From the human T2T-CHM13v2.0 reference genome, Homo sapiens: DNA of 64,000 bases. The translations under genes were made by a program, and so were the position numbers. The number at the start of each line of letters is the position of its first letter. The first letter of the stretch is position 1. This document shows positions 272-50,350 of this stretch, piece by piece. The stretch lies in assembly GCF_009914755.1 (NCBI RefSeq), contig NC_060933.1; one strand, written 5' to 3'. Under the pieces are notes generated by a model. That model was not told the DNA's origin and made no database searches. It saw only the letters and a program-made list of their open reading frames with translations.

Positions 272-616
272 CTGGCTGGGTGGTGTGGCTCACCATGTAA
301 TCCCAGCACTTTGGGAGGCTGAAGTGGGAGGGTCATTTCAGCCCGGCAGTTTGAGACCAACCTGGGCAACATGGAGAGATCTCGTCCTACAACAAAGTTT
401 AAAAATTGGCCAAGTGTAGTGGCACATACCTGTGGTCCTAGCTACTTGGGAAGCTGAGGCAGGAGGGTCTCGTGAGCACAGAAGGTCAAGGCTGCAGTAA
501 GCGCTGATCACGCCACTGCACTCCAGCCTGGGTGACAGAGCAAGACTCTGTCTCAGAAACAAAACAAAACAAAACAAAACAAAACAAAACAAAACAAAAC
601 AAAACAAAACAAAACA
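272..616 (+). mobile_element. AluJ-like with (AAAAC)n tail
   Basis: Full dimer; tail 557-616; TSD-like aaaagtaccttct / aacagtatcttct. Confidence 0.9.
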
Positions 617-707
617 GTATCTTCTTGGACATCCGTGTTTCAGGGGTCTAGTATCCCTGGAAACCCAGGCTTCCCCTCCCACTCACACCCCCTGTGGCAG
701 CTGCTAG

Positions 708-1040
<333 letters not shown>

Positions 1041-1089
1041 TGAGGCATCCTTTTGAAAATCAACTACTTTTTTTAATAATAAAAAAATT

Positions 1090-3640
<2,551 letters not shown>

Positions 3641-4141
3641 GAGGACTGGCTTTTTACCTCTGCAATGTCTCCTCCCCCCAGAACCCTGGTCCCTTAAATC
3701 ACACAAATCTCAATGCTGGGAAATCTCAGCTCTGTCTCAACAGCGATTCCTCAGCCTGAGAGCCATCAATGGAAGCCTGGGGCCGTCTGGACTTTTCAGT
3801 GTTAAATATGCATTCTCTCCATGCTTGTGAGAGCCTGTTCTAGACGCACCTGGCCGGGGGGCTGCCTGCTGACTCCAGCTCCTGCTTTGTTCCTCCCCCT
3901 GCCCCCACCACTGGGAATTCCAGAACAACAAGGCCTCTTGCTCACCTGGATAGCGAGGAGGGGCTGAGAAGACGCCTGGTTGCTGGCTCCGGTTGGCACC
4001 CAGCCTTGTTCTTCTCTCTTCTGCCAACTGCTTTTAATTTTATACTCTCTTGTCTTATTTTTATGAGCACTTGTGAGACATGCTTAATTGTTTGTCTTCT
4101 CCCAGAACAAGGAGGGTATAAATAAATAAATGAGAAATTCA

Positions 4142-8802: not shown

Positions 8803-9425
<623 letters not shown>

Positions 9426-9429
9426 ATTT

Positions 9430-11020
<1,591 letters not shown>

Positions 11021-11495: not shown

Positions 11496-11510
11496 GCGGC
11501 CCTCTGGCGG
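11496..11510 (-). promoter_or_regulatory. CTCF core motif (reverse)
   Basis: Minus strand reads CCGCCAGAGGGCCGC. Confidence 0.55.
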
Positions 11511-11541: not shown

Positions 11542-11557
11542 CCACCAGAGGGCGGCA
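11542..11557 (+). promoter_or_regulatory. CTCF core motif
   Basis: CCACCAGAGGGCGGCA matches CCASYAGRKGGCRS. Confidence 0.75.
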
Positions 11558-45001: not shown

Positions 45002-45829
<828 letters not shown>

Positions 45830-47100: not shown

Positions 47101-48940
47101 ATGCACAGAGGTCAGAGAGGGTAGAGGAACTTGGAAAGTTATAAAAAGGCTCAAAATCCCTGAGTTTGATTCTAAATGTCTTTGCAATCTAGTCCAGGAA
47201 GGCAGGGTCATGTCTGTCTTGTGACTACTGCACTGGTCCCAGCAACCAGCAAAGTTCCTGCCTATTGGAGGGCCTGCCTGGCTCCTGATTGAAAGGAAGA
47301 ATCAATGAGTGGGTGAGTGAATGAAGGGCAACAGCCTTCCTTCTTTGCAGCTGCAGAGGCTGGGCAGTTATTGGGCCATGCAGGACTCAATCAGTCTGCC
47401 CTTTCTTGTTTTCTGGTGCCCTCCAGCCTTGACGCCATGTTTAGACCATTGATATTCACAGAATAATTTCCAGCATTGATTACTCAGATGGAACACCCTC
47501 CCTCCCAAGCTCCGCCGCCTTCCTCAGTCTTCCCCACCACAGGCGACTCCACCGAGTTTCCTGATTAATTCCCCTCCATAAACATTCTGATGAAGCCGCC
47601 AGCTCTCGCCAGGCAGCCTCCCAGAGCAAGGATTATTTCACAAAGCTGCTTTTCTCTTTGTGACCTGTGTTCATTAGCTGCTGCAAGGGTCACAGTCTGG
47701 GCTGCTTCAGTGGGGCCACCTCTGGGCAGGCAGTTCCCCTAGAGGAGAAGCTCTTCCCAGCCTGCCCAGGGTGGAGAAGGTCACCCCTGCCCAGACCCAG
47801 TGGCCTGGAAGCCGTGGGAAGTAGCACATTCCTGGCAAGGGAAGAGATGCTCTCAGTGGAGAAAATACTAGGTGGAGGCGCATGACACTTCTGATATTCA
47901 GCCATTTGCTGACCCATGAAAATGGCAATTCAATTTAATAGGACCCTCTGTGGTTGAGCCTAGAGAGAGGGAGGGGAAAAAGGAGTGAGGGGTCTGGAGT
48001 CAGAAACACAGGCAGTCCTGCTCTGTGTCTTCTCAGCTGTGTGGCTTGAGGAATGTGGCCTCATCCCTCTGGGCTGACTTGTCAAGTGTTGATAGCCACA
48101 GCACCGCCTTGCAGGGGGGTGTGTAGTTTCAGTGCAATCATTACATCACAGCCTGCTTCCGTGGCTGCTGCAACATCCCTGTGCCCTCAACAGCAGCTAT
48201 TTTAGCAATAACGAGTGAGTTGGGGGCACTGGGATAGTGCAGCTGCCCACTGACTGGCTCCCCAGGTGCCTACCTTCACTTCTTCGGAGTCACTTCTCTG
48301 GCAAAGGCACCCAGGGGGTCCAGGAGACCTTGGACACAATGGATTTTAGTGGCAACCAGAGAGGTCCTCTATAGCCCACTTCCATGAGTGGATAAACATG
48401 GTGCCTGGCACAGACGGGATCCTCAACAAACTGAAATGAATGAGACAAGTGTATCAGCTGATGTCTTAGAACACAGAATTCAGCTTTGAGAAGTAAAAGA
48501 TACAAAAAAAGTCATAGGAGGTTGGAGAGTGGGCATGGTGGGAGAGCAGCAGCCAGCTCCTGGGGGTGGGTTAGCAGGTGCTTTTATGGGGCCCTGGAAG
48601 TCACTGGCACTTTGAGCCTAAGGGTGTGGCGAGTGTCTGGGGAGCTGTCCGTGGTGCTGAAGCACAACCACTGGTGAGGGCAGCTGTCCTTTCAGTGCCT
48701 GTGCTCAGCGGAAGCCTGTCCCACTCCTTCAGGAATTCTGAGTCCAGAAAGGAAAGAAGCAGTGGAAAGGGAGGCAGAGAGTGAGAGGTGAGGCCTGCAC
48801 AAAAGGTTATTCGTCAGACAATCACTGCCAGACTGGAGGAAGCACTTTTGTTTTCACATTATTGCAGTCACCAAACACTAATTCCCTCATGAGGGAAACA
48901 TCGGCATCTCTCCCACCAACATGCTCCGAATGCCATCCTT

Positions 48941-49296
48941 TTTTCATTGCTGTGTAGTATTCCATCACATGAACTATACATAACTACCACAATTTGTTAA
49001 CTCATTCTATTTTTTTTTTTTTTGACAGACTCTTGCTCTCACTCAGGCTGGAGTGCAGTGGCACGATCACCGCTCACTGTAGCCTCAACTTCCTAGGCTC
49101 ATGTGATCCCTCTGCCTCAGCCTCCTGTGTAGCTGGGGCACAGGCATGTACCATCATGCCCAGCTAATTTTTTTTTTGTAGAGATGGGGTCTCCTTATGT
49201 TTTCCTGGCTAGTCATGAACCCCTGGGCTCAAGCAGTCCTCCTGCCTTGGCCTCTCAAGATGCTGAGATTACAGGTATGAGCCACTGCACCTGGCC
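48941..49296 (-). mobile_element. AluJ plus a 71-bp captured L1-derived flank, all inside one TSD
   Basis: TSD cgaatgccatcctt (48927-48940) / ccaatgccatcatt (49297-49310). Confidence 0.8.
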
Positions 49297-50350
49297 CCAA
49301 TGCCATCATTATGGCAAAAGTCAAATCAATCTTGTGTCTCCAAATTTGTGATGTGCACCCACCCTCATTCCTCTTGTCTGGAACCTCTCTGCAGGTCACT
49401 GCCCACTGCTCCTTCCAGCTCCAGGCCTTTTGCCCTTCCTACTTTCCATCATCTCATCTGACCCATCCTTTAGAGCCTGTCTCCAGATTCTCCTCTTCCA
49501 GGAAGCCTCCCTTGACCACTTCAGCCCACTCTGCCTTCTTGCTCCTCTGACCACCTACTGAACTTGGAGCCAAGTTTAGCAAGCGCTGCTTTTCAAGATA
49601 TTCTCCATAAGTGCTCTCTTTCTCCCCACTCAGTTGTGAGCTCTCAGGGGACCCAGTTCTTGCTTCTTTTACCTCCTTCCAGCAGAGCCAAGCCTGAATT
49701 CTGCATGAATATCAACATCAGCAGCAGTGGCATCAGCCACTGTGAATGAGCACTAAGGCTGTGTTGGGGCTGTGCTGCACTTCCTGTGCTTTATCTCACT
49801 GAAAACCCATGGTAACTCTGTGAAAGCAGATCCTATGATTACCACCATTATAATAGGAGGCTCAGAGGGACGAGGTAACTTGCCTAAAGCCATACATGCA
49901 TGAGGGCTAGGGTTCAAGCAAAGGTCTGCCTGACCTCAGGGTCTAGTTCTTAACCAGCAGTCCATCTGATTCATAGCAGTGACCCATAATGGCAACACAC
50001 ATTCTGAAACCAGTCCCGCTCTGCTGTTTACTTATGTTGAGGCTGTACGCCTAAAGAACCAGCGCTAGAAGAATTGGGGATAGGAAGATTTTTTTTTTAA
50101 AATCAGTACAGAGCAGAGAGCACTGCATTATTTTTCTGCCTCTAAGAACATTCTCATTACTTACAAATTACATTAATTTCTACAAACACTTATTGACACC
50201 CACTGCCTGCTGTGCACCCTGCGTTATGATGAGTACTGGATTAGACAGTCATAAATAAAACACACACTGGCACAGTCAGTCTGTGATAGAAGCTTTTAGA
50301 GAGAGAATTAGAAAAGGGCTCTGTGGCTCAGCCCCATCCTGGGGGCCCAG

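What the first reader, a model, noticed from the sequence alone, without database searches (positions are those of the whole stretch)
48927..49310. Alu carrying 71 bp of 3' flank from another Alu 38 kb away (3' transduction or ectopic conversion)
Seen: 48941-49011 aligns without gaps to 10549-10619 (57/71 identical; core atgaactataYatRactaccacaatttgtt 28/30). At both sites an AluJ-type T-tail begins immediately afterwards. At 10.6 kb the segment is part of a long L1ME-like element and the Alu has its own TSD (ccaatctact/ccattctgct), so this looks like the donor. At 49 kb the segment is an isolated snippet lying with the Alu inside a different TSD (12/14 match). The shared core looks longer than the L1ME consensus I recall (tgaatataccacaa), suggesting a private shared insertion. 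The donor flank has no TTTT in Alu sense, so Pol III read-through is possible. Two possible mechanisms: (1) a rarely documented Alu 3' transduction that pinpoints an ancient source element; (2) break repair of an Alu tail templated on a nearby Alu, overshooting into its flank. Proximity favours the second, and the donor is now monomer-sized while the recipient is a dimer.
Basis: partly seen in the sequence, partly recalled or inferred. Interest (0 to 1): 0.75.

Follow-up and report, generated by a model that had tools for sequence, protein, structure and literature searches.

The report
Alu carrying a neighbouring Alu's flank
An old human Alu repeat carries, inside its own insertion scar, 71 bases copied from beside another Alu 38,000 bases away; this looks like the disputed process of Alu 'transduction' but more likely arose by DNA repair copying from the neighbour, and it likely has no function.

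Summary
Window 48941-49011 matches 10549-10619 (57/71, ungapped). Both carry a 9-nt insertion found nowhere else in the genome: 2 hits at up to 3 mismatches, against 102 exact copies with the standard spacing. At 10.6 kb the segment is part of a longer colinear L1M-type 3' end next to a hybrid monomer Alu (donor). At 49 kb it is isolated and lies, with a full-length J-type dimer Alu, inside a 13/15 target-site duplication. Divergence (20%) dates the copy to the AluJ era. The structure meets the formal picture of an Alu 3' transduction. However, donor and recipient are only 38 kb apart and in direct orientation, no new poly(A) follows the segment (6 T against 5 in the donor), the two Alu bodies are no closer than random J copies, the donor is now a monomer, and no third copy was found. 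Best reading (0.70): DNA-level Alu/Alu templated capture with a microhomology exit, a 'pseudo-transduction'. True transduction remains at about 0.17. Primate orthologues could decide it. One ancient event with no sign of function; it matters mainly for the disputed question of whether Alus transduce.

The parts
48926..48940 (.). Left copy of the recipient's target-site duplication; its last bases overlap the T-run that starts the captured segment
   Evidence: 13/15 match to 49296-49310; junction shown
48939..48944 (+). 6-T run (A6 in Alu sense): exit junction, matching the 5-T run at donor 10548-10552; no added poly(A)
48941..49011 (-). Captured 71-bp segment, a piece of an old L1M-type 3' end with a private 9-nt insertion, including the donor Alu's 3' target-site remnant
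49010..49296 (-). Recipient: full-length dimeric J-type Alu, tail 49010-49023 (14 nt)
   Evidence: subfamily label from recalled diagnostic positions
49296..49310 (.). Right copy of the target-site duplication, abutting the Alu 5' end
10549..10619 (-). Donor segment, 3' flank of the donor Alu, inside a longer L1M-type element that continues at 10786-10880
10621..10785 (-). Donor Alu: left-arm/right-arm hybrid monomer with an 18-nt tail, same orientation as the recipient, 38.4 kb away
   Evidence: 5' part closer to the left arm in 21 of 21 J elements, 3' part closer to the right arm in 20 of 21
10231..10535 (-). Second J-type Alu in the same L1M element, just beyond the captured segment, with a perfect 12-bp TSD; not captured

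Best explanation
The 71 bases inside the recipient Alu's target-site duplication are a copy of the donor Alu's 3' flank 38 kb away, most likely made by DNA-level copying between the two same-direction Alus soon after both had inserted. Shown: the copy, its direction, its position inside the TSD, its age class. Inferred: the recipient inserted normally first; a break or stalled fork in its A-tail let the Alu-bearing end invade the nearby, then nearly identical donor Alu; synthesis ran through the donor tail and 71 bases of flank, then rejoined the recipient's remaining tail and TSD through a 5-6 base A/T microhomology. A microhomology-mediated 38-kb tandem duplication that later collapsed by Alu/Alu recombination would give the same product and is counted here. 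The result mimics a 3' transduction; no function is indicated.
For: Proximity: if 386 (the Hoyt preprint's count), 1000 or 3000 transductions landed uniformly, 0.01, 0.025 or 0.07 would fall within 38.4 kb of their source genome-wide; de novo Alu inserts are reported as apparently random across chromosomes (PMC3415434 passages). Direct orientation and distance fit Alu/Alu rearrangements, 75% of which were <57 kb in PMC6071635 (passage). The terminal run is 6 T against 5 in the donor while the internal tails are 14 and 18; in de novo inserts the terminal, primed segment is the longest. The donor is a hybrid monomer and the recipient a dimer. At two linked right-arm positions (Fisher P=0.006 among J-like copies) the donor has the S/Y-type base and the recipient the J-type base (weak). 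No third copy (about 74% sensitivity at 10% divergence). The same window holds a young Alu/Alu tandem duplication, and locus L028 holds a duplicated Alu 3' end inside an intact TSD, so post-insertion changes inside TSDs do occur.
Against: No direct trace of a conversion tract: recipient and donor share 0 non-majority bases in 79 right-arm sites and 1 in 67 left-arm sites; the donor ranks 16th-17th and 5th-8th of 25, at best 4th of 25 in 40-nt windows. Flank divergence (14/71; CI 11-31%) equals J-J pair divergence (median 20.5%) and is unlikely at S/Y level (P=0.04): this is what transduction predicts, and repair needs an early event. No Pol III terminator blocks read-through. Alu conversion is reported to act within about 10 kb (PMC8230782 passage citing Aleshin and Zhi). 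A poly(A) may shrink over tens of millions of years.
Confidence: 0.7

Rival explanations
1. True Alu 3' transduction: the donor, then a dimer, was an active AluJ-era source; Pol III read through its tail, L1 ORF2p primed internally on the 5-A run 71 nt downstream, and the copy inserted 38 kb away; the donor later lost its middle.
For: One TSD encloses Alu plus segment, the Alu starts at its natural 5' end, no TTTT for 525 nt, the segment ends at an A-run, the date equals Alu age, and a near-consensus source would leave no shared variants. Internal priming within A-tails is documented.
Against: Needs a landing within 38 kb, a later deletion in the donor, no tail expansion and two parallel changes at subtype positions; no other offspring. 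No AluY transduction was confirmed among 118,489 elements (bioRxiv 2024.04.29.591526).
Confidence: 0.17
2. Capture during insertion: reverse transcription primed on a local RNA or DNA spanning the donor, copied the 71 bases and tail, then switched to an unrelated Alu RNA.
For: Explains proximity, equal age, full-length Alu with TSD and lack of kinship between the Alu bodies together. 6 of 226 de novo Alu inserts were completed by recombination with a genomic Alu (PMC3415434 section 8).
Against: Those 6 inserts lacked direct repeats; no evidence here for a transcript over the donor; needs a rare two-template reaction.
Confidence: 0.1
3. Two independent L1M fragments that each received an Alu at the same place.
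For: Outside the insertion the recipient segment aligns about as well to one ordinary copy (L004, score 73) as to the donor overall (72).
Against: The 9-nt insertion is private to these two sites, the tail junction is at the same position, and the segment is bounded by the TSD.
Confidence: 0.02

Closest known systems
Alu 3' transduction (Hoyt et al. preprint 10.1101/2021.07.12.451456: 386 calls, AluSx-WaluSat; Kojima's monomer case as cited in 10.1101/2024.04.29.591526)
   Same: TSD encloses Alu plus downstream sequence traceable to another Alu's 3' flank, upstream of the first terminator.
   Different: Source 38 kb away, no poly(A) after the segment, source now a monomer, AluJ-era age, one copy only; Halabian et al. 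tested AluY only and confirmed none.
Alu/Alu-mediated rearrangement by template switching (PMC6071635)
   Same: Directly oriented Alu pair within the usual distance range.
   Different: No gain or loss of the 38-kb interval remains; a second, microhomology junction limits the gain to 71 bp; no chimeric junction is visible in the Alu.
Alu-Alu gene conversion (PMC8230782) and long-tract conversion beyond homology (PMC4888836 passage)
   Same: One-way copying from a neighbouring homologous repeat.
   Different: The visible tract is the non-Alu flank, not the Alu body; the distance exceeds the ~10 kb range cited.
Templated sequence insertions, TSIP class 2 (PMC5110952 abstract; Indel-Seq preprint 10.1101/2022.09.30.509517 passages)
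   Same: Short patch copied from elsewhere into a break; contact, invasion or annealing, then end joining.
   Different: Here one junction is Alu-tail homology and the patch sits inside a pre-existing TSD, so it resembles class 1 without its poly(A).

Membership tests
Alu 3' transduction | One TSD encloses Alu and extra 3' sequence | tested here: met
   13/15
Alu 3' transduction | Extra sequence maps to the immediate 3' flank of another Alu in the same orientation | tested here: met
Alu 3' transduction | Pol III terminator (4 T) lies downstream of the segment at the source | tested here: met
   first TTTT at +525, window 10094
Alu 3' transduction | Poly(A) tract between the transduced segment and the 3' TSD | tested here: not met
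   6 vs 5 in the donor; decay with age cannot be excluded
Alu 3' transduction | Source is a full-length element able to give the offspring | tested here: not met
   donor is today a hybrid monomer; earlier state unknown
Alu 3' transduction | Source and offspring of one subfamily, sharing variants | tested here: inconclusive
   both J-like; 0/79 and 1/67 shared non-majority bases; two subtype positions differ
Alu 3' transduction | Single-step gain of Alu plus segment at an orthologous empty site | not testable with these tools
   no primate relatives held
Alu/Alu-mediated rearrangement | Directly oriented Alu pair within about 250 kb | tested here: met
   both on the minus strand, 38.4 kb apart
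Alu/Alu-mediated rearrangement | Chimeric Alu at the junction | tested here: inconclusive
   not visible here; the same kind of test did detect the young chimera at 2988-3271
Alu/Alu-mediated rearrangement | Deletion or duplication of the interval between the Alus | tested here: not met
   no other donor/recipient homology in the masked self-comparison
TSIP class 1 | TSD, poly(A) after a cryptic signal, TTTT/A site | tested here: not met
   TSD present; no poly(A); no canonical signal hexamer in the printed segment; site only loosely TT/A
TSIP class 2 | Patch from a distant region inserted at a break | tested here: inconclusive
   patch and microhomology seen; the break itself is inferred

The most novel reading that the evidence does not exclude
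This is a genuine AluJ-era 3' transduction: it names an ancient Alu source element at 10.6 kb and shows that its RNA was reinserted only 38 kb away, implying that Alus can transduce flanks by internal priming and that retrotransposition can be local.
Probability: 0.17. Interest if true: 0.72.

Novelty: new variant of a known kind. Interest (0 to 1): 0.42.

Why it matters
Whether Alus transduce 3' flanks is disputed: one preprint called 386 cases, a later study confirmed none among AluY. This locus passes the usual structural filters (TSD, traceable source, no terminator) yet is better explained by local repair. If so, it shows how DNA-level copying between neighbouring Alus can fake a transduction, and it suggests a simple genome-wide test: the source-to-copy distance distribution. 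If it is a true transduction, it marks an AluJ-era source element and a local insertion. No functional effect is indicated; the nearest annotated element (silencer 48591-48781, hub annotation) does not overlap it.

Tried and rejected
Standard L1M subfamily feature: rejected; no Dfam library was available, so this rests on genome counts. The 27 comparison copies were picked by the standard motif and lack the insertion by construction, so they are not evidence of privacy; one search had 2 rows on the wrong strand and was redone; 3 paralogous loci were dropped. Old segmental duplication: no further homology between the two regions. Further offspring: none. Shared Alu variants: none beyond background; 9 near-duplicate Alus were dropped. 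Neighbour Alu at 10231-10535 as template: ranks 13th of 25 in the right arm. A family sharing the donor's odd right-arm stretch: 14 other matches at <=3 mismatches, none exact, so mostly private. The shared-variant control on the young duplication found 3 shared bases with one parent and 0 with the other after CpG masking; plain identity ranking found both parents. TSD survey of 77 Alus (20 adjacent, 10 displaced, 41 none, 6 at edges) missed this locus's own TSD, so it is insensitive; 3 of the 10 displaced were inspected and were tail repeats or an internal duplication, one is the known tandem duplication, 6 were not inspected. CTCF loop idea: an exact motif lies near the donor (11542) but only a 1-mismatch motif 1 kb from the recipient; not pursued. 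Four papers sought by id were not held.

Full report
Observation. Window 48941-49011 aligns without gaps to 10549-10619 at 57 of 71; the diagonal does not extend on either side except into the T-tails. A 15-bp direct repeat with 2 mismatches lies at 48926-48940 and 49296-49310. Its right copy abuts the 5' end of a minus-strand Alu and its left copy ends where the shared segment starts, 356 nt from the Alu start; the 14-mer has only these 2 hits at <=2 mismatches on the window's + strand. Rfam finds two 7SL-like arms at 49022-49164 and 49179-49295, below gathering score, so the recipient is a dimer.

The segment is a private copy. A DNA search of the genome with the recipient segment gave 6 of 6 scored candidates: itself, the donor (E 4e-10) and four weaker L1M-type pieces; the donor segment gave only the two sites; these searches skip common words. 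Pattern counts are whole: the 28-letter shared core has 2 matches at <=2 and <=3 mismatches, control 0. A standard-form motif has 1038 matches at <=2 mismatches. With identical anchors, spacing 2 gives 102 exact matches and spacings 8-14 give 4: the two window sites (spacing 11) and two sites with other inserts. So both carry a 9-nt insertion that is not a subfamily feature. The name L1ME is recalled; no Dfam library was at hand.

Direction. The sequence right of the donor Alu hits ordinary copies colinearly with the segment (for example L027 1499-1539 then 1545-1604), while neither flank of the recipient hits any of the 36 loci tested. The 10.6-kb site is therefore the donor. The recipient's tail starts at the same position in the segment as the donor's tail, so the copy was taken after the donor Alu had inserted.

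Age. Against 27 ordinary copies the differences are symmetric: 5 donor-only, 6 recipient-only, 3 both. 14/71 is 19.7% (CI 11-31%); J-type Alu pairs have a median non-CpG divergence of 20.5% (300 pairs) and S/Y pairs 12.0% (1653 pairs); P of 14 or more at the S/Y level is 0.04. The event belongs to the AluJ era. J and S/Y were sorted by recalled diagnostic positions.

The two Alu bodies. Recipient and donor share 0 non-majority bases in 79 right-arm sites and 1 in 67 left-arm sites; the donor ranks 16th-17th and 5th-8th of 25, and between 4th and 25th of 25 in eight 40-nt windows. This neither supports nor excludes either mechanism, since both Alus were near their family majority at the time. 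The donor is a hybrid monomer. At two linked right-arm positions it has the S/Y-type state where the recipient has the J-type; among 38 other J-like arms 20 are J/J, 6 S/S and 6 mixed, 6 unscorable. Each change also occurs singly, so I weigh this at only about 2-5 fold against a shared transcript (my estimate).

Junctions. The far junction is a run of 6 T in the recipient against 5 in the donor; internal tails are 14 and 18. In de novo Alu inserts the primed terminal A-segment is much longer than internal ones (PMC3415434, passages and section 8 read), so the lack of a new tail counts against target-primed transduction, with the caveat of long decay. No TTTT occurs for 525 nt downstream of the donor tail, so read-through was possible.

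Mechanism. Both main models end in the same structure. Transduction needs four extra things: a landing within 38 kb (expected 0.01-0.07 such cases genome-wide for 386-3000 uniformly placed events), later loss of the donor's middle, no tail growth, and parallel subtype changes. Repair needs a break in an Alu tail, invasion of a directly oriented neighbour, overshoot and a microhomology exit; each step is of a known kind (passages of PMC6071635; PMC4888836; bioRxiv 2022.09.30.509517; abstract of PMC5110952). Local Alu/Alu exchange has happened in this window: a tandem duplication at 2.9-3.3 kb with 72/74 spacer identity whose middle Alu best matches the left neighbour at its 5' end and the right neighbour at its 3' end, of 90 elements. 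I put repair at 0.70, transduction at 0.17, capture during insertion at 0.10 and independent origin at 0.02. Against my reading: there is no visible conversion tract, the age coincides with insertion, and the ~10-kb range cited for Alu conversion (PMC8230782 passages) is shorter than 38 kb.

What is in print. Halabian et al. (bioRxiv 2024.04.29.591526; parts 1-2 of 3 read) confirmed no transduction among 118,489 AluY, looked only at AluY, and cite Kojima's monomer case and AluSx-WaluSat; Kojima's paper itself was not held. Passages of PMC12350158, PMC9311842, PMC3024322, PMC4607524 and bioRxiv 2024.04.18.590093 gave nothing on Alu-flank capture or local landing; PMC12350158 notes AluJ is under-represented at present-day Alu-flanked variants. 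Nine searches (listings only, apart from the papers named) showed no description of a neighbour's flank captured inside an Alu TSD; the library lacks most subscription papers, so this is not proof of novelty.

Verdict. A real, well-bounded, ancient single event; a new variant of known Alu/Alu templated copying that imitates transduction. It is a good test case for a disputed question, but has no sign of function and its mechanism cannot be settled without orthologues. Interest 0.42.

Noticed in passing
window 2557-3654: Young Alu/Alu tandem duplication of about 400 bp: three Alus separated by two copies of a 74-bp spacer (72/74 identical); the middle Alu is a chimera of its neighbours.
   Followed up: yes
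L028 (G000:C1:121600392-121603418), Alu at 2631-2914, minus strand: S-type Alu whose last ~90 bases occur three times in tandem inside a perfect 13-bp TSD.
   Followed up: partly
window 11542-11554 and 11498-11510: Exact and 1-mismatch CTCF-like motifs (motif recalled) in a GC-rich stretch about 750 bp from the donor Alu; no annotated element there in the hub table.
   Followed up: no
window 10125-10880: One old L1M-type 3' end holds two J-type Alus 85 bp apart in the same orientation, each apparently with its own TSD.
   Followed up: partly
window 9650-10131 and 8818-9431: Adjacent or nested Alu pairs with no spacer.
   Followed up: no
window 45068-45214 vs 45534-45690: 73% inverted non-Alu match on both sides of the Alu at 45219-45495, possibly a MITE-like element split by the Alu.
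   Followed up: no
G000:C10:71323005-71323045: Another standard-spacing L1M-type site followed by a long T-run at nearly the same position as in the finding, hinting that this spot is a repeat insertion target; locus not fetched.
   Followed up: no
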